Shown here: in pieces, positions 19,701 through 36,771 of the stretch
How the letters are laid out: each line of letters opens with the position of its first letter
Numbering within the stretch: the stretch's first letter is position 1
The notes under the pieces: model-generated
What the model was told of the DNA's origin: nothing
The model's input: only the letters and a program-made list of their open reading frames with translations
Database searches by the model: none
Position numbers and translations under genes: made by a program
Source of the DNA: an uncultured archaeon
GTDB taxonomy: Archaea > Thermoplasmatota > Penumbrarchaeia > JASLWR01
Direction: 5' to 3'
Assembly (NCBI GenBank): GCA_964342815.1
Contig: CAYFHS010000020.1
Location: 37,894-75,450 of the forward strand
DNA length: 37,557 nt

Positions 19701-22700
19701 GAATGGGAAAATTGAGATTCATAGGTGTAACGGGAGAGTCATTTTCAAGTGATATCGGTATAGACCAGATCGCAATTTTTGCAGGGAATTCTCTTAACAC
19801 GGTGGAGAATGTCACTCTATGGTATCGGTATTCCCAGAATAATAATTCCTGGGGTGGATGGACATACTTCGGAAAGGATTCCACGGATCCTTGGTCCTTC
19901 AATTTCAACACTCCGGAAGGAACCGGTTATTATCAGTTCTATTCCATGGCAAACGACACTCTTGGAAACCGAGAAAGGCTTCCCGCTTCCTGGGATACTG
20001 TGTATGCTTACGATCCTGATGCTCCCGTGATCTCCACACCGGCCATGTACAATGGAAACTATCAAAATAATCATTTCAATGGCGTCATATCAATTCGATC
20101 CGACGTATCGGACGCGGGTATAGGTCTCAATACCAGTTCCTGTCTGAGATCGGTAAACGGTGGGGGCTATTCCAATGCCAACTCTTACTATTCAACCGGA
20201 AAATTGTATTTCGATAATTACAATCCTGGGGCTAGTTTCAACCTGAGATTGAGAATGTCCGATAAACTTGGTAACCAGCAGACCAGTTCCCAGGTAACCT
20301 TTACATATGACGGTACAGCTCCTACCTTTGGAAATCCGGAAATATATAACAGTTCCACTTATGGAGTATATTATAATGGTCGGATCAATATTAGGGTTAC
20401 TGCCGCGGATGCTGGTGTCGGACTGGATGTTGGAACTCCCCTTTATTCTCTGGATAACGGTGCGAACTGGCAAAATGCGGATTGGGACGGCACCTACATT
20501 TATAAAGAGAACTTGAACCCGGGGGGGAACATAGATATCAAATTCCGGATTAAGGATCTTCTGGGAACCGAAGGAAACAGCAATATGCTGAATATGAAAA
20601 TCGATAACAATCGTCCCGTATCGTCGGTAAATGGTATAAATCCATATTGGAGAACAACTTCCCCCATCACAATCTCCAATTCCGTTACCGACAATGGTGA
20701 AAGCGGGGTTCGAGACCTTGCATTATGGTATAAATTCAGCGTGGATAATACGAGCTGGACACAGTGGAAACCCTTTGGGCTCAAAATAAATATGTGGAAT
20801 TTTGATTTCACAGCACCGGATGGTGACGGATATTATCGTTTCTATACCATTGCCAACGATACCGTGGGAAATCAGGAAAATTCCCCGGCCGGGGGTGGCG
20901 CAGATACATTATGCGGTTATGATTCCAAAGCACCGACAATAGATCAAGACTTTAGTCCCGGCCACGGTACCACCGGAGACCGGTTTACCATTAAGATCAA
21001 GGCATTGGATAATATCAAGGTAACCGCTGTAACTGCTACGTGGGGTCATGGCGGTAATGGGGGGAGTGATGTACCATTGACCGACAACGGGGACGATAAT
21101 TGGACTTTGACCGTAACATTGGATCAAAGCATAGCGCAGTTGAATTTCACCCTGAAATTGAGAGATCCCGCAGGCAATGTTTTCGAAACAGCGCAAAAAT
21201 CTGTGGGTGTAAATGACAACGATATACCGGGTATTACAGCGGATCATACGGGACAGACGGGATATACCGGAGACAGCTTCGCGTTTTCGGTGGATGCAGC
21301 AGATAATATCGGGTTCGGGATCGTTCAGATCAACTGGACCCAGGGTCAGAATTCCGATGTTCTCGTGCTTCAGGATCAAAACGGGAACGGGAACTGGATC
21401 GGTACGTTAAATTTAGCTCCGGATAGTGTTAAAGACCTTGTCTACGAGATCTTTTTAGAGGATGAGGCGGGAAACGTCAACAAGAGCCAAATGAAGACCA
21501 TTCAGGTAATGGATAATGACAATCCTGTGTTAGAGGGAGATAACAGCGTTGATATCGGTACGACTGGAGACCAATACAATTTCACAATTATTGCTTCCGA
21601 TAATATTGGTGTTGAAAAAGTTAGGGTGAACTGGGCACACGGAGGGCTCATGGACGTTGCCGTTCTTAGGATCGATGGGCAGGGAAGGTGGCAAGGAAAT
21701 ATCACTACTAATGAATTATCAATTGAGTCGCTCAATTATAATATTACAATTGAAGATAATGCCGGAAATTCATTTGAAAGTGCAATGAGACAAATTGAGA
21801 TCAAGGATAACGATCCTCCCAAGTTTGATGGTGAGATCGATCATGAAATTCCAAAAACCGGTGAAATGATCAATGTCACAGTGCGGATGATGGATAATAT
21901 CAATGTAAGTGAAGTTTTCGTGGTATTCAACTTTGAACGTGGTCGGGATGAAATGACCGAACCTATGGAAAGGGTAGCAGGGAATATTTGGAGGTTTACG
22001 GGTCAGGTCCCCCATGATGCCATCGTTATTAATTATTTCTTTTTGGCAAACGATGAAAACGGAAATCATCTGAATACCCGGGATGAATTCGGTGTGAACA
22101 ACAAGAGTGTCGATGATACGATCCTACCCCAGGCAGTGGCCGGTGGTGTTCAAGACGTGGAACAATATGAGATTGTTGAATTCAATGGTGGAGGCTCTCA
22201 CGACAATACAGGTATCGAGAATTTTACCTGGAGTTTCAACTACGATGGTAAAGAGATCCAATTATACGGTGATATTGTGGGATTTCGATTTGATCTTCCT
22301 GGGCAATTCGAAATAACATTGACCGTTTGGGATCGAGATGGCAATTCGGGCATCAGTCACACCTTTGTCAATGTCAAGGATATCACACCGCCCAACGCTG
22401 AAGCAGGGGAGGATGTGGTGGAAATCGGCCAGGAGCAAGAGGTGCATTTTAATGCTGAGCAAAGCAGTGATAACGTGGGAATCGTAGAATATATCTGGAA
22501 ATTTTCCTATGATGGGGAAGAACGTGAATTCCGTGAAATGGAGTTCAAGTTCAATTTTGATATTCCTGGAGAGTACAACGTAACATTGACTGTCATCGAT
22601 GGGGAAACAAATTTGGATCGGGATTTTGTAACGGTTATCGTCAGAGACATCCATAAACCGGAAATCCATCTATCCATCAATGGTGATGAAATAAATAATG

Positions 22701-25039: not shown

Positions 25040-25243
25040 AACACAATGATAATTATTCCAGAGGAATTACTCTGAATTCGATCTCTCCGAAGGCCAGTAT
25101 TATTCTTTTAAAAGTAGACGGAGTACCCTGCTGAAAATGGATGGGGATAGTTAAGTTAGTGGAGAGTTTTATAAAGTAATAGATGTATAAAGGGATATTT
25201 GTGATATTGCTTCCAGTACTCTAATTAAAGGAAGGTGAAAGAG

Positions 25244-28200
25244 ATGAAACGTACCATAGTCATTGTGGGAGTTTTGGTTCTTACCATTTTATTATTAATG
25301 GTTGGGAATGAGAACTTCGTATTAATAAAGGAACGATCAGGTAACAATAACGATGTTTCTTCCGTAGAGCAGGTAGAAAAAATGGATAGTTTTGAAAGCC
25401 AAAGCAGGGGTGATAATTGGTTCCGGACGACCGTTGATAGCTTAAACGATGTCGGGAAATACTCATCCATTGCGGTGGATGTGAACGGAATACCTATCAT
25501 CAGTTATGTGGATACCACAAATAACTGGCTGATGTATGCCAAGTTGAACGGATCGACCTGGGACGGTGGAATGATCGATAATGGTAATATTATAGCACAT
25601 ACTTCAATCGCTCTGGACCCACGCAACGGCGAGCCGCATATCAGCTATTTCCGCAATAATAATCTAAGGCATGCATATTACGGAGGAACTCCCGTCGGAT
25701 GGCATATAGATACCGTTGACAATTCAGGGGGAGTCGGTAATTACTCTTCTATTAAGATCGACAGCAGCGGCAATCCCCACATAAGTTATTATGATGCTAC
25801 GAATCGGATTCTAATGTACGCTAAGCACGATGGAAACCAATGGCACAATGAAACCGCAGATGATACAGGGGAAAATAATGCAGGTAATGTCGGAACTTAT
25901 AGCTCTCTCACACTTGATTCCGCTAACAAAGCTCATATTAGCTATTATTCGGGTAGCACTTCGAACCTATTATACGTTAAAGAAACCGAATCCGGAGGTG
26001 GTTGGGGTCGTCAAACACCGGATGCTACCGGTAGTGATAATGCGCGTCAAATCGGCAAATACACATCCATTGTGCTGGACAGCGGGGATAAACCAAGAAT
26101 AAGCTATTATGATGAGAATAACAAAAACCTTATGTTTGCATATAAGGATGCTGCTCAGGGTGGTGGGGTTATCTGGCGAAAACAAACTATCGATCAAAAT
26201 GGAATTGTTGGGATGTATACATCCATATCTGTTGGTATCGACAACCATCTTAACATTAGTTATTATGATCAGACCAACGGCGATCTGAAAATTGCATCTA
26301 ATAATTCGGGTGGATGGGTAATTAAACCCGTGGACACACAGAATGACGTCGGGCTTTACAGTTCAATGGTAATGTGGGGTGAGAATGTGCCATATATCAG
26401 TTACTATGACCAGACAAACGGTGATCTGAGATTTGCTACCATTGACAATGAAAGGCCGAACTTAGTGGATAATACCGTAAGACAGGTGGGGACTGCTAAT
26501 CCGTTGGAATTTAATATAAGTGCAACGGATAACCGAGAAGTAGGTTCGGTACATGTTAACTGGGTCCATGGCAATAATAGCGACAATATGTCCCTGCAGA
26601 AAAGAGGGAATAATTGGCTTGGAACCATAACCACCAGCCAAGATACTAACGATTTAACCTACACGGTTTATGTCAGGGATGTTGCAAGTAATTATGCAAT
26701 TTCTGCTCAGAAGAATGTTCCGGTCACTGATGATGATGCCCCGCAATTTGAAGCTGATAATAGTCCCCGTGAGGGATATACCGGTGACAATTTCACATTC
26801 AAGATCATTGCTCATGACAATATCGGTGTGGAAAAAGTCTGGGTAGACTGGTCCTTCTCAGATGATAGCGATACTCTTTATTTAACTCCAGGTGGTGACG
26901 ATACCTGGCAGGGAGATATTCACCTCGACATCAAACACGTGGGACCTCTTGAGTACACATTCCAGATACAGGATGGTGCCCAGAACACATGGAACAGCAC
27001 CCAGATCTCGATACCGGTCAAGGACAATAAAGCGCCAAAATTAATAGAAGATACAACTGCCGGAGCTCCGGGAACCGAGGAAGTTTTCATAATTTCCGCG
27101 GAGATAATGGACAATATTGGTATTTCACAGGTGGAACTGAAATATTCTTTCAACGGGGATGATTGGCTAAATGAAAGTATGGTTGGCTCCTCTGGAAATC
27201 TCTGGGAATCATCCCTCACGATCCCGAAAAATGCGACCACTCTGGAATATTCTTTCCATATTTTCGATGTGTCCGGGCATGATATTTCGACAAACTTCAC
27301 GCGGCTTCAAGTACGGGATACCATAGCCCCAACGGCAGACGCCGGTGAGGACCTAATGATTCTTGAGAATGAACCTATCACATTTAAAGGCAATAACAGC
27401 CATGACAATATTGGAATAACCCGATATTCTTGGACTTTTGATTATGACGGGGCAATGAAGGAGTTAGAGGGTGAATTCGCTGATTTTACCTTTGCAATTC
27501 CCGGGACATATATAATTACCTTGACCGTGACCGATGGTTCTAATAATACGAACACCGACGAGGTTACCGTTACAGTATTGAAGGAAATTCCCTTTAAAGC
27601 AATTCCGGCGGTAAATGGAAACCCAATAGGTGCCAATGAAAATTTGACTATTTCCTTGGGAACTGGATTGGTGTTTGATGCTCGTAACAGCACTGGAGAT
27701 ATTACGGAATATGTGTGGAACGGAGAAAATGAAGCCGGAGCAGGTAAGCTGGAATTCCAAGGGGCCTTTTTTGTTCATATTTTCGATATTCCCGGTATTT
27801 TCACCGTAACATTAACCGTTTCAAATCCTTCATCCGGGGAGAACGACAGCATTTCCTTTAAAATTATTGTAGAGGAAGCAGGAATGGATGATTCGGAAGA
27901 TCCCATTGTTCTGGTATCTATAAATGGTGAACCCCTGGGCTCAGGTGGAAAATATACCGTGCAAAGAGGTGATCGGGTAATTCTGGATGGGAGAAACAGC
28001 ACTGACGATACAGGGATCGAGAAATATGAATGGTCTGCCGATCTTATTGATAATCCCTTGAAGTTTGAAGGAGGAATTGTAACCCATAAATTTCTGAAAG
28101 CAGGTTCCTATAACGTCACATTGACCGTTACCGATAAAGCGGGAAAATCTGCCAGTATGACCTTCACCATAATTGTGGAGAAAGAGGATATCGTCGAGCA

Positions 28201-30151
28201 GATTTTTAGAATAGGTCCAATAGTAGATGCTGGCAGCAATCCATTGGAAGGTATTACAGTACAATTCATGCTTGGACCCGACTCTTACTCCGTGGATACC
28301 GATGGATCGGGATTTGCCAAATTTGCATTATCACCTGATGATGTACCTGATGGAACCGAAATCACTGCCACAAACGGCCAACTGACTTTCACCTGGAACC
28401 AGGGAGACAATATTCCCGTCTTCGATGAATCAAACCCGCAGGAACACGAGGTCCCGGTTGGTCCGGTTCTCGATGCCGATGGAGACCCGGTGGAGGGTGC
28501 AGAGGTAAAGATCCTCATCGATGGGAATCCATACTCGGTAGAAACAGACGAAGATGGAATGGCTATATTCAGACTCCCCGTGAACGATATACCTGGTGGT
28601 ACAAGGGTGACCGCGGTTTTTGATGGTGAAACAAAGGAGTGGAAACACGGGAGTGAGACCATACCGGCTTTCTCATCGCAGGATGAAGGAATTCGTCCAG
28701 TGGTCTATGCTCTGGCGATCATAGTGCCCGTTTTCTTCGTTATACTCCTTTTGATACTAATCGTGAAGAAACGTAAAAGACAGAAAGAGATAAAGGAGAG
28801 GATGTCCGAGCTCAAGCATGAGATCGAGCGGGAAGAAGAGCTCGAGAGGATCGGGCGAACGGTCCAGGCGGAGATAAGCAAAGGGTCCAAGGCAAAGGAG
28901 AAACCTGCGGAAAAGGAGCAGGAAGAACCTGTGACTGATAAGAGACCACGGAAAGGGAAGAGAAAGGAACCGGTTGCGGCATCGGTTGAACCGAAAGCGA
29001 CGAAACCCAAAACGGAAACAAAGGCAACGGAAACCGTTGAAGAACCTTCTGGGGAAGCAGAAGTGGATGTGTGGGGTGATGAGGATTATATGGATGACGA
29101 ACTGCCACTTCCCCCTCCACCTGAGGACCTTAAGGAACATCTCGGTATCATCACCATGGAGAAGGTTCCATCGCATATGAAGAACATACTTCCTGGATAT
29201 ATTATCACCGATAAGCTGGGTAGCGGTGGATTTGCAACGGTGTACAAGGCAATAAACAAGGATGGCGATGGAGTTGCCATCAAACTTCCAAAATTCCTGG
29301 ACGAGACCATCGACAGCTCGGTTTTGAAGAAATTCCAGGCAGAAGCAGACATATGGAGGAAACTGAAACACAAGAATATCGTCACCTTCCTTGACAGCAA
29401 TATTCGTCCGGTTCCCTACATGACCATCGAGCTGATGGAAGGGGGGAATCTTGATGGATTGTTAAAGGACCACCGGCTTTCGGTGAAGGAGGCAAAACCC
29501 CTGATACTCCAGATCCTGGATGGTCTATCTTACGCTCACAGGATGGCCTGTGTGCACCGCGATATCAAACCCGAGAATATTCTATTTACGAAGGACGGGG
29601 TGCCGAAGATAGCTGATTGGGGTATCGGGAAATTCATGGCGGACGAAAGCGTTTCTCAGAGTATTGGTACCAAGGGAACATTCTCTTATGCCGCGCCTGA
29701 GCAGTTCGACCGGGAGACTTATGGAGATGTGGATTGGTCTACTGACCTGTTCCAGGTAGGTATTGTATTTTACCAGATGCTCACCGGTGTGAACCCGTTC
29801 CTGGCGAACGAGCTTGCCAGAGTAATGGGTCTAATAATGAATAAAACACCGGACCCCCCCAGTTCCTTGAATCCTGAAATATCGCCTGAACTGGACGAGA
29901 TTGTGATGAAGTGCTTGGAAAAGAAGAAGGAAGACCGGTGGAGGAGTACCGACGTCATTTACAGCAAGCTCAAAGAAATGGAAATCCGAAAACACGGGAA
30001 CCTTAAGAAATACCGCCGTTCCCTTGAAAGAGCTCTGAAGGATGGAGTCATCTCGGAGGATGAGGATGTCATGCTTGCCGAACTCAGGGAACACATGAGC
30101 ATATCCGATACCGAACATTCCTCTCTCGTTGACGAAATAATGAATGGTTGA
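25244..30151 (+). CDS. Receptor-like Ser/Thr kinase 2: one 7-blade propeller, Ig-like domains, 3 PKD-like domains, TM, kinase, C-terminal helical domain
   Basis: Same repeat type (7 copies); TM followed by KKRKR; kinase motifs GSGGFATV, VAIK, HRDIKPEN, DWG and APE. ATG 25244 has GGTGA 5 nt upstream. Confidence 0.9.
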   Translation: MKRTIVIVGVLVLTILLLMVGNENFVLIKERSGNNNDVSSVEQVEKMDSFESQSRGDNWFRTTVDSLNDVGKYSSIAVDVNGIPIISYVDTTNNWLMYAKLNGSTWDGGMIDNGNIIAHTSIALDPRNGEPHISYFRNNNLRHAYYGGTPVGWHIDTVDNSGGVGNYSSIKIDSSGNPHISYYDATNRILMYAKHDGNQWHNETADDTGENNAGNVGTYSSLTLDSANKAHISYYSGSTSNLLYVKETESGGGWGRQTPDATGSDNARQIGKYTSIVLDSGDKPRISYYDENNKNLMFAYKDAAQGGGVIWRKQTIDQNGIVGMYTSISVGIDNHLNISYYDQTNGDLKIASNNSGGWVIKPVDTQNDVGLYSSMVMWGENVPYISYYDQTNGDLRFATIDNERPNLVDNTVRQVGTANPLEFNISATDNREVGSVHVNWVHGNNSDNMSLQKRGNNWLGTITTSQDTNDLTYTVYVRDVASNYAISAQKNVPVTDDDAPQFEADNSPREGYTGDNFTFKIIAHDNIGVEKVWVDWSFSDDSDTLYLTPGGDDTWQGDIHLDIKHVGPLEYTFQIQDGAQNTWNSTQISIPVKDNKAPKLIEDTTAGAPGTEEVFIISAEIMDNIGISQVELKYSFNGDDWLNESMVGSSGNLWESSLTIPKNATTLEYSFHIFDVSGHDISTNFTRLQVRDTIAPTADAGEDLMILENEPITFKGNNSHDNIGITRYSWTFDYDGAMKELEGEFADFTFAIPGTYIITLTVTDGSNNTNTDEVTVTVLKEIPFKAIPAVNGNPIGANENLTISLGTGLVFDARNSTGDITEYVWNGENEAGAGKLEFQGAFFVHIFDIPGIFTVTLTVSNPSSGENDSISFKIIVEEAGMDDSEDPIVLVSINGEPLGSGGKYTVQRGDRVILDGRNSTDDTGIEKYEWSADLIDNPLKFEGGIVTHKFLKAGSYNVTLTVTDKAGKSASMTFTIIVEKEDIVEQIFRIGPIVDAGSNPLEGITVQFMLGPDSYSVDTDGSGFAKFALSPDDVPDGTEITATNGQLTFTWNQGDNIPVFDESNPQEHEVPVGPVLDADGDPVEGAEVKILIDGNPYSVETDEDGMAIFRLPVNDIPGGTRVTAVFDGETKEWKHGSETIPAFSSQDEGIRPVVYALAIIVPVFFVILLLILIVKKRKRQKEIKERMSELKHEIEREEELERIGRTVQAEISKGSKAKEKPAEKEQEEPVTDKRPRKGKRKEPVAASVEPKATKPKTETKATETVEEPSGEAEVDVWGDEDYMDDELPLPPPPEDLKEHLGIITMEKVPSHMKNILPGYIITDKLGSGGFATVYKAINKDGDGVAIKLPKFLDETIDSSVLKKFQAEADIWRKLKHKNIVTFLDSNIRPVPYMTIELMEGGNLDGLLKDHRLSVKEAKPLILQILDGLSYAHRMACVHRDIKPENILFTKDGVPKIADWGIGKFMADESVSQSIGTKGTFSYAAPEQFDRETYGDVDWSTDLFQVGIVFYQMLTGVNPFLANELARVMGLIMNKTPDPPSSLNPEISPELDEIVMKCLEKKKEDRWRSTDVIYSKLKEMEIRKHGNLKKYRRSLERALKDGVISEDEDVMLAELREHMSISDTEHSSLVDEIMNG

Positions 30152-32363: not shown

Positions 32364-32372
32364 AAAAAAAAA
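32364..32372 (-). terminator. Oligo-T terminator after tRNA-Val
   Basis: T9 on the minus strand starting 2 nt after the discriminator base. Confidence 0.75.
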
Positions 32373-32373
32373 G

Positions 32374-32447
32374 TGGGCCAAGCCGGATTCGAACCGGCGG
32401 TCATCGCCATGTCAAGGCGACATCATAACCAACTAGACCATTGGCCC
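32374..32447 (-). tRNA. tRNA-Val(GAC), no encoded CCA, no intron
   Basis: GGGCCAA/TTGGCCC acceptor stem, D-loop AGTTGGTT, anticodon arm TCGCC-TTGACAT-GGCGA, T arm GCCGG-TTCGAAT-CCGGC and discriminator A. Confidence 0.97.
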
Positions 32448-32702
32448 ATATCATATCTGTATTTTGTTGTTGTAAGGGCGGGATCAGGAGCCAGCACACT
32501 TGCTGGCGACCCAGATGTGAACCGACCAGAGGGAGGTATACATCGTTGGGAGCCAACACACCTGTTGGCGACTTAGTTGTGACCTGCGCAAAGCGCTGGT
32601 TACAACGTGATATGCTGGCATACCTGCCAGCATGGCCAGGTGAAAACCGAAGGGCAAAGCCCTGTTTTCACCGAGGATAACCAACTAGACCATTGGCCCA
32701 TA
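32425..32702. repeat. 26-bp perfect direct repeat ATAACCAACTAGACCATTGGCCCATA at 32425-32450 and 32677-32702
   Basis: Equals 3 nt of leader plus nt 1-23 of tRNA-Val. The two copies flank a 226-bp insert. Confidence 0.95.
32487..32676. ncRNA. Candidate structured RNA or ssDNA element: three tandem ~62-nt two-hairpin modules
   Basis: Hairpin A starts at 32490, 32552 and 32614 (exact 62-nt period). Hairpin B loops are centred at 32529, 32591 and 32657. Both stems show compensatory substitutions. Function and strand are unproven. Confidence 0.6.
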
Positions 32703-32732
32703 CCGGATTTACTTCTGGTTATTGTTATTCAC

Positions 32733-32747
32733 GATAAAAACCTTTCG
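32733..32747 (-). promoter_or_regulatory. BRE-TATA promoter CGAAAGG-TTTTTATC upstream of the truncated tRNA copy
   Basis: Archaeal BRE/TATA-like arrangement about 34 nt upstream of the first G of the 5' tRNA fragment (32699). Confidence 0.6.
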
Positions 32748-32814
32748 CCGAAATGGGAAAAAAACATCATGACCGGGATCAACAAAATCAGCCGATATTA
32801 CCAATTATTGACAA

Positions 32815-35800
32815 TCAAGTTTCATCACCAATAACTGTATCCCCGGTGTCCTCGACCTCAATCATAGCTTCACTGCTTTCATTTTTATTTTCAGGTTCTA
32901 TTTCTACTCCTACTCCATTCTCACCGGCTATTTTTTTTATTTTAATTCTCTTCTTTTTTGCAATTTTTTTAATCGGGTCTTTTTTAGCTGCTGGTTCTGT
33001 TCCTTTCACGGATTGTCTCAGGAAACTAGGATTTACCCATATTACTATAAGCAGGATCAGTAGAAACACAAATGCGGCTGCCGCGTAAAAATTGATCCTC
33101 ATTTCTGAGGTTGACGTAATGGTAACGTATAGGATTGCCGAATCGTTTGCCCCGTCATCATCTGTTACCGTGAGAACGACTGTGTAATTTCCATCACTTT
33201 TGAAATGATGAACCACAGAAACACCATGACCAACTTTCCCATCACCAAAATCCCACATATACTGTAATGAGTCGTAATCAGAAGGTGTATCCGTCGAATT
33301 TATCGCGGAAAATGTTATGGTCGCTCCTTTCTTATGAATGTCGGTTGCGTTGGCTACCGGCGGCCTATTGTCAATTCTGATCTCCTCCACGTCAAATGCC
33401 GTCATAGGTTCATCGAGGTCCAGGTCGGTAATATAAAGGGTGATATTGTAGGTTCCGGCTTTTCTGTATACGTGCTCGGCCGACAGAGAATAATTTTTTC
33501 CGGTCCCGTCACCGAAATCCCAACGTACGCTCTTGTAGAAGACGTCGGATGGATCATTGGGGTCATAGGAATTTATTGCGCTCATATATATTGTATCGTC
33601 TTCTTTACCGCTTCTCTGGACCTCAATTACAACCACCGGTGGTGCGTTTGATATGTTGAAAAGTACAGACATGGAACGTTCGATCATATGATTATCCCAA
33701 ACGGTTAGGGTGACCAGGAAATTCCCTTTCTTAACAAAGGAATGAACCACCGTGGATTCATTTTCCACGAGCTTTGAGCCATCCCCGAAATCCCATATTT
33801 CTTTTATGATAAGGCCGTCTATGTCCACGGATAGCGATTTGAAATGGATATTTTCACCTCCCTTGACCTTTACCCCGGTATCCACTAAATCCAGTGGACC
33901 CGTTAGGTTCAAAACCGCCTCTATACGGGGTTCCGGAGGAAGGTTGGCCACGTATCTCTCGCTTGCATGAGACCAGGTGTCCTCGAAGTCCTTAACATGC
34001 AGATTGAGATCGTAATTACCGGATTCAGTGAATGTGTAGGTGATCTGCGTGTCATAACCTATGTTCCGCCCGTTGATCTCCCATGTGTAATTTGCTATCG
34101 GCCCGTCAAGGTCGTATGAACCAAGCCCGGAGAACGAATAAGGTGTATTCACTTCAACGACTTTTGGCAGCTCTAGGGTTTCTTTGATTTCGATCAAGGG
34201 TACCGGTTTTCTGTTATCTATTAGGAGGTGTAATAAGCTTCGAGCGAATTCAAAATTGTCGTAAGGCGAATATTCCCCTTCCTTTGAGATATTTCCGTCG
34301 GAAAGTATCCCATCGCTTATCACGGCAAGTCGCCCCTTCCCAATTGATGAATAGACACTCAGACTTTCGTTATTCTCCGATTTCAGGACGGTATGGTCGC
34401 CTCCTTCCGGAACCTTGTTGTGCCGGTCATAGTAGATGGTCTCTACGTAATCGAACTTTTCCAAAGATCGGTTAATATTTGAGGTGTTACCCCTTCCCGG
34501 TGCTTGGCTGTTTGTCCAGGAGATTCCACCCATCGATGTGATGGGTAACGAGATATCATTTTCCCCTCCACCCATTATGAATACGCTGCTTCCGTTAATA
34601 AGAAAATTCTCTATTGCCGAGATTTCACCTGTAGTGAATGTTTCCGTGGGTCCAGTGCTTATGTACAGGTCAAATCCATCAAGTTCTTCACCGTAAGCGC
34701 GTTTGTTCAGGATTTCAAGCTCGAAATTCTCTGCTAGGAATTCCTGGGTTATAGTGTTATAGTTCATACTGTTGCCGTGGCCCAGGTCGATCAGTAATTT
34801 TTTCTTGGTTTGAACATAGGTGGATAGGTATTGCCCCTCAACGGGATCACGTGCGCTGTTTCCGACCATGGAGATATCTTGTGTTTCGAACCAGTAATAG
34901 ATTTTTGTATAGCACGGATATGGTGGAATATCTCCCTGAAATATAGTATTTGTTACTTGTTCCAGTGGGATTCTCGTAATAGGTGTTCCCGGTGCGGAGG
35001 AGTTCACCATGTAATTCAAAGAGGTCCTGTTGATATCGATTCCCATGTTGTCGGTGATGGTTGCAATCATTGTATAGGAATTTTCTGTCTCGGTGATATA
35101 TTCCACTGGGAAGTGAATAATAGTAGGCGGCGTGAGATCGAGACCTACCCAGAAATTGAAAAGGGTTCCTGGAATGGTTGGTTCTGCATTTACCGGCTCG
35201 GTATATGTGGAATTGTCGCTGAGGAAAAGCTGGATATAATAGTAGAGGGTGACGTCATTAACCGAAATATCGAGAACTGCACGGTATATATCTTCCTGAA
35301 ATAAGAAATCCACCGGGTTGAAGTTAACTCCATCGATGGAATAATTCAAAACCACACTTGCAATACTACCCGTAGGTGCATGAACGGTGGCTTCGAAAAT
35401 ATATGGGCCGTTCACGTTCTCGGTATCGCCCAGCGGAACGTGATCGATGGAGATCGGAGTTGGTGAATCGTATTCTTTTAGGAAATCGATCCAGGGGGTT
35501 TCGGAAAAATCGAAATTCCGCAGGTATGTGTTATAATATGAGGAGGAAAGTATTTTTTCCGGGAACCAAATCGCCAGACCCAACGAATTTGGGTGGTCCG
35601 AGCCGGTACCGTATGCCACCACGCTGTCTTTGAGCGCCACAGTCAACTCCGTGGCTTTCTGTTTCAAGGACAGGGGTAGTGAAACATCGTCTTTGATGAT
35701 TTGTGCAAAACTGTATAGATCAACGTAACGTGACCGCGGTGAGTCCGCCTGTCTTCTCGCACTCCGTATCTCAGAACTATAATGATACGTGGAGGATATC

Positions 35801-36771
35801 AATGCTCTAGCGAAGGTTTCGAATGCCGGAATCAGAAACTTATCCATTGATGCAATACTTAGTGCCATCTCCGTGATGTAGCCTTGATCGTAAATCTCAA
35901 TGTAACGTTCCACGATATTTATGGCTACATCCAGGGATGACGAAAGCGGTTTTTCCGATATGAAAGACAATGCTCTCTGGTAATCCCATCCCGCGGCGGG
36001 AACTTCATCGGAGGCTCCGATGAAAAACTTTGCGTATTGCCGTATCTGATAAGCCGATTCCAGATAACCGAAATAACAAACGTCAGCGGCAATAATTTCG
36101 AATTCGGCACTATGACTTTCCTTCAATTCCGAGAGTACCGATGATAATTCCCACATTTTGAGATCGTCGCTGCCGCTGCTCCAATCCTTGCAGAATCCCC
36201 TGGTCGTCCCGTTTCCGGAATCTCCTCTCCGCTTGAAGAGACCACTTCCATGATCCCACATTACGAGAATATATCTTCTGGCTGGGTAGTTATCTATACC
36301 CCATTCCAAGAAATCACTTAGAGTATCGGGATTCCCCATGTTCAGTTCACCAAGGGAATCGTTTACAGGTGGAGTATTGATTGTAAGGGGATCGAAATCC
36401 TGCTGTACCAGGAACCGTCTCGTATCGGTCCAGTCCCCGTTACTTGCATCATGTCCTGATATTCTGTCGAACTGTACCACAATATTGAGGTCCGGACCGC
36501 TCCCTACCATCTCCATCTCGTTGAAATCGGATATGGCCACATCTTCCAGGTTATTGTCAGCTGCCATGTATACGAAAACGGTCCATTCCTTTTCAGCTCG
36601 GCCCCTTTCTCTTGATTCATGTTTTCCTGTTTCACTATGGAAACTGACAACCGAGGGAACCAATGTTACCATGCCTATCATGACAAAAAACATCAGTACC
36701 GTTGGAAAGCGTCTGGAAATTAGTTTGGTGGGGAAATTACCCCGCTTTTGTTTTGATTTTAGATCGGACAT
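32815..36771 (-). CDS. Membrane-anchored clostripain-family (C11) cysteine peptidase with Ig-like, GATase-like and PKD domains
   Basis: EWTVFVYMAADNNLE, LNMGNP, catalytic WDHGSG and ADVCYF, then E.P..GWDY. KKLLIDLGHG domain; several WDFGDG PKD motifs; TM plus a K-rich/acidic tail. GGTGA SD. Confidence 0.88.
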   Translation of the reverse strand: MSDLKSKQKRGNFPTKLISRRFPTVLMFFVMIGMVTLVPSVVSFHSETGKHESRERGRAEKEWTVFVYMAADNNLEDVAISDFNEMEMVGSGPDLNIVVQFDRISGHDASNGDWTDTRRFLVQQDFDPLTINTPPVNDSLGELNMGNPDTLSDFLEWGIDNYPARRYILVMWDHGSGLFKRRGDSGNGTTRGFCKDWSSGSDDLKMWELSSVLSELKESHSAEFEIIAADVCYFGYLESAYQIRQYAKFFIGASDEVPAAGWDYQRALSFISEKPLSSSLDVAINIVERYIEIYDQGYITEMALSIASMDKFLIPAFETFARALISSTYHYSSEIRSARRQADSPRSRYVDLYSFAQIIKDDVSLPLSLKQKATELTVALKDSVVAYGTGSDHPNSLGLAIWFPEKILSSSYYNTYLRNFDFSETPWIDFLKEYDSPTPISIDHVPLGDTENVNGPYIFEATVHAPTGSIASVVLNYSIDGVNFNPVDFLFQEDIYRAVLDISVNDVTLYYYIQLFLSDNSTYTEPVNAEPTIPGTLFNFWVGLDLTPPTIIHFPVEYITETENSYTMIATITDNMGIDINRTSLNYMVNSSAPGTPITRIPLEQVTNTIFQGDIPPYPCYTKIYYWFETQDISMVGNSARDPVEGQYLSTYVQTKKKLLIDLGHGNSMNYNTITQEFLAENFELEILNKRAYGEELDGFDLYISTGPTETFTTGEISAIENFLINGSSVFIMGGGENDISLPITSMGGISWTNSQAPGRGNTSNINRSLEKFDYVETIYYDRHNKVPEGGDHTVLKSENNESLSVYSSIGKGRLAVISDGILSDGNISKEGEYSPYDNFEFARSLLHLLIDNRKPVPLIEIKETLELPKVVEVNTPYSFSGLGSYDLDGPIANYTWEINGRNIGYDTQITYTFTESGNYDLNLHVKDFEDTWSHASERYVANLPPEPRIEAVLNLTGPLDLVDTGVKVKGGENIHFKSLSVDIDGLIIKEIWDFGDGSKLVENESTVVHSFVKKGNFLVTLTVWDNHMIERSMSVLFNISNAPPVVVIEVQRSGKEDDTIYMSAINSYDPNDPSDVFYKSVRWDFGDGTGKNYSLSAEHVYRKAGTYNITLYITDLDLDEPMTAFDVEEIRIDNRPPVANATDIHKKGATITFSAINSTDTPSDYDSLQYMWDFGDGKVGHGVSVVHHFKSDGNYTVVLTVTDDDGANDSAILYVTITSTSEMRINFYAAAAFVFLLILLIVIWVNPSFLRQSVKGTEPAAKKDPIKKIAKKKRIKIKKIAGENGVGVEIEPENKNESSEAMIEVEDTGDTVIGDET

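What the first reader, a model, noticed from the sequence alone, without database searches (positions are those of the whole stretch)
32425..32702. 5' end of tRNA-Val duplicated 252 bp upstream, bracketing a tiny insert
A perfect 26-bp direct repeat (3-nt leader plus tRNA nt 1-23) flanks 226 bp with no credible ORF. This resembles attL/attR of an element integrated at a tRNA, but it uses the 5' end (3'-half sites are the usual case) and the cargo is only a structured sequence with no integrase in the window. Recombination between the repeats would release a 252-bp circle and restore a normal promoter-tRNA unit.
Basis: partly seen in the sequence, partly recalled or inferred. Interest (0 to 1): 0.7.

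Follow-up and report, generated by a model that had tools for sequence, protein, structure and literature searches.

The report
tRNA-anchored hairpin repeat unit, archaeal
The duplicated start of the tRNA-Val gene is real and marks a recently gained 252-bp non-coding unit, one of an undescribed family of hairpin-rich units that copy the front half of a tRNA gene, sit just upstream of tRNA-Val and tRNA-Leu genes in a small group of marine Thermoplasmatota archaea, and come and go between sister species.

Summary
A perfect 26-bp direct repeat (32425-32450 and 32677-32702; a 3-nt leader plus tRNA-Val(GAC) nt 1-23) brackets 226 bp.

The insert is not a lone oddity. It holds three copies of a ~62-nt two-hairpin module with strong covariation. 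These are followed by a second tRNA piece (nt 23-38, of tRNA-Val(UAC) type) and a 22-nt leader.

The same architecture lies upstream of tRNA-Val and tRNA-Leu genes in all four genomes of this archaeal order, in 1-3 tandem copies. The sister species has the exact empty site at the orthologous locus. All three tRNA-Val loci differ in occupancy between the two species.

The window's unit carries the tail, leader and one module of a tRNA-Val(UAC)-locus unit, so it moved between paralogous tRNA genes.

No integrase, Y1 transposase, reverse transcriptase or viral attP could be linked to it. No circle or RNA reads were available.

Best reading: a selfish, non-autonomous, tRNA-anchored repeat unit. 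It spreads and is lost by recombination across its tRNA 5' copy and is carried in the pre-tRNA leader.

This scan had already noted sister arrays elsewhere in this genome.

The parts
32364..32372 (-). Run of nine T after the tRNA (archaeal-type terminator signal)
   Evidence: Read directly. Its function as a terminator is inferred.
32373..32447 (-). Intact tRNA-Val(GAC), the only GAC isoacceptor found in this genome
   Evidence: ARAGORN; Rfam tRNA, 67 bits; genome-wide tRNA list.
32425..32450 (-). Direct repeat copy A: tRNA nt 1-23 plus 3 nt of leader (TAT)
32448..32469 (-). Inner leader (CAACAAAATACAGATATGATAT) brought in with the unit. It resembles the leader at the tRNA-Val(UAC) locus of sister species G001.
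   Evidence: Tail plus leader is 34/39 identical to the G001 TAC-locus unit.
32470..32486 (-). Tail: copy of tRNA-Val nt 22/23-38 including a UAC anticodon (TGATCCCGCCCTTACAA)
   Evidence: 16/17 identical to tRNA-Val(UAC), 12/17 to the GAC gene beside it. The same kind of tail occurs in units of G001 and G003.
32487..32548 (-). Hairpin module M3 (P1 stem with inner hairpin, then P2 hairpin)
   Evidence: Alignment A1 and covariation. 92% identical to module 1 of the G001 TAC-locus unit. Covariance model R1 scores 73 bits.
32549..32606 (-). Hairpin module M2
   Evidence: 71 bits. About 78% identical to the module in the tRNA-Leu(UAA) array on contig C12.
32607..32676 (-). Hairpin module M1
   Evidence: 80.5 bits. 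86% identical to the module at the tRNA-Val(CAC) locus of another genus, G003.
32677..32702 (-). Direct repeat copy B: orphan tRNA nt 1-23 plus TAT, standing where the tRNA starts in the sister species
32730..32749 (-). Conserved BRE/TATA-like host promoter (GGCGAAAGGTTTTTATCGTG) upstream of the orphan copy
   Evidence: Nearly identical at the empty site of G001, while flanks further out are about 77% identical. Promoter function is inferred.

Best explanation
**What it is.** The repeat marks one copy of a lineage-specific, non-coding, tRNA-anchored repeat unit. In tRNA orientation the unit reads:
- orphan tRNA-Val nt 1-22/23;
- three copies of a ~62-nt two-hairpin module, inserted at the 3' edge of the D-loop;
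- tRNA-Val nt 23-38, with a UAC anticodon;
- a 22-nt leader;
- then the intact tRNA-Val(GAC).

**Shown.**
- The unit is an insertion relative to the sister species.
- Its tail, leader and last module come from a unit of the tRNA-Val(UAC) locus type.
- Units of the same build sit upstream of other tRNA-Val and tRNA-Leu genes.
- Units vary in copy number and occupancy between close relatives.
- The module is a covarying structure restricted to this archaeal family.

**Inferred mechanism.**
- Units are gained, lost, multiplied and moved between paralogous tRNA genes by recombination across the tRNA 5' segment they carry. The most likely route is host homologous recombination (ectopic gene conversion, unequal crossing-over). 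The two copies are then homogenised, which gives the perfect 26 bp.
- Loss by recombination between the repeats restores the promoter-tRNA unit.
- No terminator-like T run interrupts the unit and the conserved promoter lies upstream of the orphan copy. The whole unit is therefore probably transcribed as a ~275-nt 5' leader, and RNase P releases the tRNA. This would explain why the insertion is tolerated in front of the genome's only tRNA-Val(GAC).
- High sequence conservation across genera combined with fast turnover points to a selfish repeat rather than a host gene.
For: **Empty orthologous site.** G001 has both flanks syntenic at 76-79% identity, and the promoter joins the tRNA directly.

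**Occupancy differs at all three tRNA-Val loci between G000 and G001:**
- GAC: filled in G000, empty in G001.
- UAC: empty in G000, filled in G001.
- CAC: empty in G000, filled in G001.

**Shared unit architecture.** G001, G002 and G003 carry units with periods of 116-254 bp and one or two units per locus. The tRNA-Leu(CAG) locus has three units in G000 and two in G001. The tRNA-Leu(UAA) locus has two units.

**Inter-locus origin of the window's unit.** Its tail matches tRNA-Val(UAC) at 16/17 against 12/17 for GAC. Tail plus leader is 34/39 identical to the G001 UAC-locus unit, and M3 is 92% identical to that unit's first module.

**Copy-number variation.** A metagenome contig closely matching the G001 UAC locus has at least two tandem units where G001 has one.

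**The module is a real structure.** 93% of cells are paired against 27-40% when partners are slid. There are 24 double-change cells against 8.2 +/- 2.2 in shuffles, and 9 of 18 pairs are compensatory.

**Conservation beyond neutral.** M1 is 86% identical to a module of another genus (91% over 92 nt including the tRNA part). Orthologous flanking DNA of that genus is about 66% identical.

**Restricted distribution.** The model hits only family f1 among 121 Thermoplasmatota genomes.

**Homogenisation.** Both copies in the window carry T16 and T23. The G001 orthologue and the other G000 Val tRNAs have G16, and orphan copies in relatives mostly have C23.

**No mobile-element enzyme nearby.**

**Read-through is plausible.** The unit has no T run longer than 4, and T9 follows the tRNA.
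Against: - Homologous recombination cannot explain how units arose independently at unrelated tRNAs (Val, Leu-CAG, Leu-UAA) with the module always placed right after the last D-loop A.
- It also cannot explain how a near-identical module (M2) occurs in both a Val and a Leu array. Some targeted insertion step of unknown enzymology seems to exist.
- A 22-26-nt homology is short for RadA-type recombination.
- Transcription, RNase P processing and the active strand are all untested.
- Strand signals conflict. A conserved A.C in P1 (16 of 33 copies) would be G.U on the antisense strand, whereas UUCG loops favour the sense strand.
- No empty-site or circle reads were seen, though only low-depth contigs were available.
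- Only four genomes of the order exist in the collection, and they are related.
Confidence: 0.55

Rival explanations
1. Mini integrative element. The unit is a non-autonomous element with attP equal to tRNA nt 1-22(26). A site-specific recombinase encoded elsewhere mobilises it in trans. It excises as a 116-254-bp circle and re-integrates at the 5' part of tRNA genes, supplying its own leader and tRNA 5' end.
For: - Precise empty site.
- The unit brings its own leader, distinct from the host leader.
- The boundary falls at the same D-loop position in three unrelated tRNAs.
- Turnover is fast and conservation across genera is high.
- Tyrosine recombinases exist in all four genomes. One of 392 aa is conserved in all four, and one of about 415 aa occurs in G000 and G001.
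Against: - No recombinase lies next to any unit.
- The conserved 392-aa enzyme may simply be the housekeeping Xer. This is my inference and was not tested.
- No larger parent element with the same ends was found in the four genomes.
- No viral contig holds the tRNA 5' 22-mer, and phages and plasmids give no match.
- Inner leaders resemble the local host leader at several loci, which suggests local duplication.
- A DNA circle of 116-254 bp is very small for synapsis by a tyrosine recombinase (general knowledge).
- No joint or circle contigs were seen (weak, because depth was low).
Confidence: 0.22
2. Host-functional structured RNA. The modules form a leader-borne small RNA or processing element. 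It is released by RNase P from the pre-tRNA, or made antisense and pairs with tRNA-Val nt 1-38. It regulates tRNA maturation or another process.
For: - Strong covariation.
- The position downstream of a conserved tRNA promoter guarantees expression.
- UUCG tetraloops occur in several module types.
- On the plus strand the structured core is flanked by two arms that together are antisense to tRNA nt 1-38.
- Three E. coli tRNA-linked repeats turned out to be sRNAs (PMC8144298).
Against: - Presence or absence differs at every tRNA-Val locus between two species of one genus, and no locus is constantly occupied.
- Module number and order vary freely.
- Decayed copies lie upstream of live ones.
- There is no Rfam family.
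- Leu units have a different tail.
Confidence: 0.15
3. tRNA-splicing substrate. The orphan 5' half (nt 1-38 with UAC anticodon, modules acting as a D-loop intron) is an alternative 5' exon or split-tRNA piece, joined to the 3' half of the downstream gene.
For: - The tail ends at nt 36-38, the canonical intron position.
- The minimum-energy fold of the precursor can pair the orphan acceptor strand with the tRNA 3' end.
Against: - Intact stand-alone tRNA-Val(UAC), (CAC) and (GAC) genes exist.
- Leu units have no anticodon-arm tail.
- Some tails carry anticodon-position changes (TTGC in L004 and in unit 2 of L005).
- No bulge-helix-bulge motif was evident at the junctions. This was by eye only and was not modelled.
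Confidence: 0.04
4. Assembly artefact: a collapsed or chimeric join at a repeated tRNA sequence.
For: - The genome is a metagenome-assembled genome.
- The distal junction is bridged only in the probable source sample.
Against: - Independent contigs from three other studies span the tRNA/insert junction and most of the insert with no mismatch.
- The same architecture occurs in three other genomes and in metagenome contigs.
Confidence: 0.03

Closest known systems
tRNA-linked repeats (TLRs) of Escherichia coli (Egan and Landy 1978; Rudd 1999; as described in PMC8144298)
   Same: - Non-coding units of roughly 100-250 bp lie inside tRNA operons.
- Each is delimited by an 18-26-bp copy of the end of the neighbouring tRNA.
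- There are one to five per locus.
- They are co-transcribed with the tRNA.
- Origin and function are largely unknown.
- The same genome also has 3'-side units of exactly the TLR kind behind tRNA-Val(UAC).
   Different: - Here the copied end is the 5' end and the units lie upstream. TLRs copy the 3' end and lie downstream.
- The organism is archaeal.
- Units carry a covarying two-hairpin module and a second tRNA piece (nt 23-38).
- Gain and loss between sister species and transfer between paralogous loci are demonstrated.
attL/attR partial tRNA copies left by integrase-bearing elements (Williams 2002; Reiter 1989; Thermococcaceae examples of 9-23 kb in PMC9897764), and their decayed, trans-mobilisable derivatives (CIMEs, from my own knowledge)
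   Same: - A direct repeat of part of a tRNA gene brackets the inserted DNA.
- Relatives have an empty site.
- The tRNA is reconstituted with element-supplied sequence.
   Different: - The repeat is the 5' part, not the 3' part.
- The inserted DNA is 116-254 bp with no gene.
- No integrase is linked to it.
- Units form tandem arrays.
- A further tRNA-derived piece lies inside the unit.
REP/BIME elements and IS200/IS605-derived palindrome-associated transposable elements (PATEs)
   Same: - Short structured palindromic modules occur in many dispersed copies.
- The modules are often clustered and nested.
- Their presence differs between sister genomes.
   Different: - No Y1 transposase or RAYT was found in G000 or G002.
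- No module lies near the Y1 genes of G001 and G003.
- REP and PATE elements do not copy tRNA ends.

Membership tests
Integrase-mediated tRNA-integrating element (attL/attR) | Direct repeats derived from the target tRNA flank the insert | tested here: met
   26/26 repeat equal to the leader plus tRNA nt 1-23.
Integrase-mediated tRNA-integrating element (attL/attR) | Empty attB in related genomes | tested here: met
   Syntenic locus G001:C98 lacks exactly the 252 bp.
Integrase-mediated tRNA-integrating element (attL/attR) | Integrase or recombinase gene in or beside the element, or a parent element carrying one | tested here: not met
   - Neighbouring genes are a CDP-alcohol transferase, DUF6015, clostripain-PKD and kinase-PKD.
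- No longer element with these ends occurs in four genomes.
- No viral contig holds the core.
Integrase-mediated tRNA-integrating element (attL/attR) | Excised circular form with attP | tested here: inconclusive
   No joints were found in the contigs of four runs, but depth was only 2-4x and no raw reads were available.
E. coli-type tRNA-linked repeat (TLR) | [quoted passage not shown] | tested here: not met
   The copy here is of the 5' end and the unit lies upstream of the tRNA. The definition is taken from PMC8144298.
E. coli-type tRNA-linked repeat (TLR) | One to five tandem units inside a tRNA operon | tested here: met
   1-3 units lie between the promoter and the tRNA at Val and Leu loci.
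REP/BIME or IS200/IS605 PATE | Dispersed multi-copy palindromic module | tested here: met
   - The covariance model gives 10, 15, 25 and 1 hits in the four genomes.
- One ~90-nt relative has several copies at 86-94% identity in G001.
REP/BIME or IS200/IS605 PATE | Cognate Y1 transposase (TnpA or RAYT) in the genome, with the same hairpins at its element ends | tested here: not met
   - PF01797 is absent from G000 (88.9% complete) and G002.
- No module lies within about 3 kb of the Y1 genes of G001 and G003.
Archaeal tRNA intron or split tRNA | The piece is needed to make a functional tRNA, with a bulge-helix-bulge motif at the junctions | tested here: not met
   - A complete tRNA follows the unit, and all three Val isoacceptors have intact genes.
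- The bulge-helix-bulge motif was not modelled formally.
Any Rfam RNA family | Score at or above the family's gathering threshold | tested here: not met
   Only the tRNA passes. The best other hits have E above 0.01.

The most novel reading that the evidence does not exclude
The units are a new class of self-homing mini-element. Each is a 116-254-bp structured DNA or RNA that carries a copy of the first 22 nt of its target tRNA. It inserts at the D-loop edge of tRNA genes while rebuilding an intact tRNA behind itself, and excises as a tiny circle. The enzyme would be either not yet recognised or a host recombinase recruited by the conserved two-hairpin module. That would be a gene-less integrative element riding tRNA promoters.
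Probability: 0.2. Interest if true: 0.85.

Novelty: new variant of a known kind. Interest (0 to 1): 0.58.

Why it matters
Partial tRNA copies are normally read as scars of large integrated viruses or plasmids. Here the whole "element" is a few hundred bases of conserved hairpins plus tRNA pieces. It still shows the marks of mobility: a clean empty site, transfer between paralogous tRNA genes, copy-number change, and cross-genus conservation well above that of flanking DNA.

It offers a 5'-side archaeal counterpart to the unexplained tRNA-linked repeats of E. coli, with enough natural variation to work out how such units arise.

If a dedicated mechanism exists, it would be a very small system for site-specific insertion at tRNA genes. 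If not, it shows how structured selfish repeats can colonise pre-tRNA leaders and be tolerated because RNase P removes them.

It also matters for annotation, because orphan tRNA 5' halves and long structured leaders can be mistaken for pseudogenes, att sites or new RNA genes.

Tried and rejected
- **Rfam.** Searches at gathering and permissive thresholds on the window and 12 related loci found nothing but tRNAs and one RNase P RNA.
- **nhmmer.** A module profile run on the genome found only the three window modules above noise, so sequence alone is too weak.
- **Public reads.** 20 runs hold part of the stretch and none is on record as RNA (no RNA holder listed). Laying four runs gave only 2-4x contigs. 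No joints, no empty form and no circle were seen. The stretch from 32693 to about 32930 (the end of the distal repeat and the adjoining upstream flank) was not covered in those runs.
- **Metagenome contig L075.** It could not be extended, because the record is not held.
- **Phage, plasmid and viral-contig searches.** Searches with the insert and the tRNA 5' core gave no match.
- **Y1 transposase loci of G001 and G003.** No module was found nearby.
- **Reverse transcriptase.** It occurs only in G003, so retro-homing is not supported.
- **Hammerhead, K-turn, C/D-box, bridge-RNA or omega-RNA-like readings of the module.** These were considered by eye. They were rejected because the conserved boxes pair as Watson-Crick stems, and Rfam models of the ribozyme and HEARO families gave no hit.
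Not tested.
- **Chromosomal rearrangement between tRNA-Val loci.** Rejected. Downstream flanks are orthologous beyond about 100 nt, and only small 3'-side repeat units differ.
- **Literature.** Full-text searches found no description of 5'-side tRNA-anchored hairpin units in archaea.

Full report
**1. Observation**

tRNA-Val(GAC) lies on the minus strand at 32373-32447 (ARAGORN; Rfam tRNA at 67 bits). The repeat finder reports a 26/26 identical direct repeat at 32425-32450 and 32677-32702. The spacing is 252, and weaker similarity runs to 49 nt. In tRNA orientation each copy is TAT followed by GGGCCAATGGTCTAGTTGGTTAT, that is tRNA nt 1-23.

The 226 bp between the copies is richer in G+C than its surroundings. 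It folds far better than shuffled sequence on both strands (z -7.9 plus, -5.2 minus). No Rfam family matches it.

Contigs from three other studies cover the tRNA/insert junction and most of the insert without mismatch, so the arrangement is not an assembly accident.

**2. Anatomy of the insert**

In tRNA orientation the unit reads as follows:
- orphan tRNA nt 1-22/23 (32699-32677);
- module M1 (32676-32607);
- module M2 (32606-32549);
- module M3 (32548-32487);
- TGATCCCGCCCTTACAA (32486-32470);
- CAACAAAATACAGATATGATAT (32469-32448);
- the intact tRNA.

The three modules are homologous to one another and to modules in relatives (alignment A1). Each module has a 9-bp stem P1 enclosing a small inner hairpin, a short linker (UGG/UAA + GUC), and a 7-bp hairpin P2 with an ARGURU loop.

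Covariation is strong:
- 9 of 17-18 pairs show compensatory changes.
- 93% of cells are paired, against 27-40% when partners are slid by 1-3 columns.
- There are 24 double-change cells, against 8.2 +/- 2.2 in shuffles.

The 17 nt after the modules is a copy of tRNA-Val nt 22/23-38. It is of the UAC isoacceptor type (16/17 identical), not of the GAC gene it sits beside (12/17). What is duplicated is therefore a 5' half-tRNA plus leader. The hairpin modules are inserted exactly at the 3' edge of the D-loop (…GGTTA | modules | TGATG…).

**3. Relatives**

The window is contig C20 of a 4.35-Mb, 88.9%-complete genome. Its relatives are deposited as uncultured marine "Thermoplasmatota archaeon" metagenome-assembled genomes. 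The order has only four genomes in the collection. All four carry units of the same build upstream of tRNA-Val genes:

| Genome | Locus | Units |
|---|---|---|
| G001 | UAC | one 188-bp unit with two modules, plus a decayed older one |
| G001 | CAC | one 136-bp unit |
| G002 | UAC | one 116-bp unit |
| G003 | UAC | two units of 127 bp |
| G003 | CAC | one 142-bp unit |

At each of these loci the tail copies the anticodon arm of the tRNA that follows. The tail stops at nt 36-38.

A covariance model of the module (R1) also found the architecture at two tRNA-Leu loci:
- tRNA-Leu(CAG) has three tandem units in G000 and two in G001. The module follows …GGTCAA, the equivalent D-loop position.
- An intron-containing tRNA-Leu(UAA) on C12 has two units.

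The model also hit more distant module copies that are not next to tRNAs. One such ~90-nt element has several copies at 86-94% identity in G001 and is missing from the orthologous G001 site. Among 121 Thermoplasmatota genomes the model hits only this family, apart from one marginal hit.

**4. Gain, loss and movement**

The orthologous GAC locus of sister species G001 is syntenic on both sides (76% identity over 751 nt and 79% over 798 nt). It keeps the BRE/TATA-like GCGAAAG(G/T)TTTTTATCGTG. It runs from the leader straight into the tRNA, so G000 has exactly 252 extra bp.

Conversely, G000 lacks the units that G001 has at the UAC locus (flanks about 80% identical) and at the CAC locus (promoter and leader conserved). 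All three Val loci therefore differ in occupancy within one genus.

The right part of the window's unit comes from a UAC-type unit. Tail plus leader is 34/39 identical to the G001 UAC-locus unit, and M3 is 92% identical to that unit's first module. M1 is closest to modules of another genus: 86% to G003, and 91% over 92 nt including the tRNA part. Orthologous flanking DNA of G003 is only about 66% identical. M2 is about 78% identical to the module of the Leu(UAA) array.

A metagenome contig closely matching the G001 UAC locus has a second tandem unit with two SNPs where G001 has one unit.

Two levels of change are thus seen. Whole units move and multiply among tRNA genes that share the 5' segment. 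Modules are exchanged even between arrays at unrelated tRNAs.

**5. Enzymes**

Genes around the site encode a CDP-alcohol phosphatidyltransferase, a DUF6015 protein and two large PKD-domain surface proteins. No recombinase is present.

Searches across the four genomes gave:
- **Y1 transposase (PF01797):** none in G000 or G002. Those of G001 and G003 have no module nearby.
- **Reverse transcriptase:** G003 only.
- **Tyrosine recombinases:** one 392-aa type in all four genomes, a ~415-aa type in G000 and G001, and two more in G000. None is linked to a unit.

The insert and the tRNA 5' core have no match in phage, plasmid or viral-contig collections.

**6. How it most likely works**

Shown:
- It is an insertion or deletion bounded by the repeats.
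- It has an inter-locus origin.
- Tandem copy number varies.
- The modules are structured and conserved.

Inferred:
- **(a) Recombination.** Units are gained, lost and multiplied by recombination across the tRNA 5' copy. I favour host homologous recombination (gene conversion, unequal crossing-over) for four reasons.
  - Units are shared among paralogues with the same 22 nt.
  - Arrays expand and contract.
  - No dedicated enzyme or parent element appears.
  - The two copies in the window have been homogenised. Both carry T16 and T23, whereas the G001 orthologue and the other G000 Val tRNAs have G16, and orphan copies elsewhere mostly have C23. The identity ends exactly where homology ends.
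- **(b) Transcription.** The conserved promoter lies upstream of the orphan copy. No T run longer than four interrupts the unit, and T9 follows the tRNA. The unit is therefore probably transcribed as a long 5' leader and removed by RNase P. That would make an insertion in front of the genome's only tRNA-Val(GAC) harmless.
- **(c) Selfish behaviour.** Conservation above the neutral level together with rapid turnover is the signature of a selfish repeat.

What this does not explain is the first formation of units at unrelated tRNAs with the same D-loop boundary, or module exchange between Val and Leu arrays. A targeted insertion step with unknown enzymology probably exists.

The active strand is unresolved. 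A conserved A.C in P1 (16 of 33 family members) would be a G.U on the antisense strand. UUCG loops in several module types point to sense RNA.

**7. Comparison with known systems**

The nearest described things are the tRNA-linked repeats of E. coli. Those are units bounded by an 18-19-bp copy of the tRNA 3' end. They lie downstream of the tRNA, with one to five per locus, and their function is largely unknown (PMC8144298). The present units mirror them on the 5' side. The same genome also has true 3'-side units behind tRNA-Val(UAC).

Classical att scars come from elements of 9-23 kb with integrases (PMC9897764). That membership fails on the integrase feature. REP/PATE membership fails on the transposase feature. 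Full-text searches found no description of such 5'-side units.

**8. Earlier notes of this scan**

After I had worked out the module structure and the Leu arrays, look-ups showed that the scan had already flagged related arrays on other contigs of this genome. These were the Leu(CAG), Leu(UAA), Arg and Asn/Ile loci and the dispersed nested hairpin repeats. The three modules of this same stretch had also been flagged. These notes agree with what I found. I re-derived the Leu loci and the dispersed-family claim myself, and I checked the TLR comparison in the paper.

**9. Verdict**

This is a real, recently gained member of an undescribed family of tRNA-anchored hairpin repeat units. It is a new variant of known kinds (tRNA-linked repeats, att-like partial tRNA duplications, REP-like hairpin repeats). 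The mechanism is only partly resolved. Interest is moderate to high.

Noticed in passing
G000:C29, about 100 nt downstream of tRNA-Val(UAC) (22505-22579, minus); the same in G001 (L004): A copy of the tRNA 3' end (GTTCGTGATCCGGCTTGGCCCA followed by a T run) lies about 100 nt behind the gene. The small downstream units are shared between the UAC locus of G000 and the CAC locus of G001. This is a 3'-side array of the E. coli TLR kind.
   Followed up: partly
G000:C12:12568-12690 (L058): A tRNA-Leu(UAA) with a ~35-nt intron next to the anticodon loop was missed by ARAGORN and found by Rfam. It is preceded by two 184-bp units. In these the orphan tRNA copy is interrupted twice, after nt 8 and after the D-loop.
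   Followed up: partly
G000:C5:73756-74290 (L068) and G001:C69 (L067): Three (G000) and two (G001) tandem ~150-200-bp units lie upstream of tRNA-Leu(CAG). After the module each unit has a stretch complementary to the tRNA D-loop (TTGACCAGG against CCTGGTCAA). This closes a three-way junction, unlike the sense-strand tail of the Val units.
   Followed up: partly
G000:C26:51794-52829: A tyrosine recombinase gene (open frame of about 415 aa) lies about 470 nt downstream of tRNA-Thr(UGU). This is probably a classical integrated element at a tRNA 3' end. A similar recombinase occurs in G001.
   Followed up: no
G003:C11 (L069), about 120-170 nt upstream of tRNA-Val(GAC): A module-family hairpin pair lies on the strand opposite to the tRNA with no orphan tRNA copy. 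The module is therefore not always co-oriented with, or attached to, a tRNA fragment.
   Followed up: no
G000:C25:35533-35618: tRNA-Ser(UGA) has a copy of its last 22 nt (3 or fewer mismatches) 105 nt downstream.
   Followed up: no
window 25235-30151 (+) and 32815-36771 (-): Two giant surface-type proteins flank the site. One is a 1638-aa PKD-repeat protein ending in a Ser/Thr kinase domain. The other is a 1318-aa clostripain (C11) peptidase with PKD repeats.
   Followed up: no
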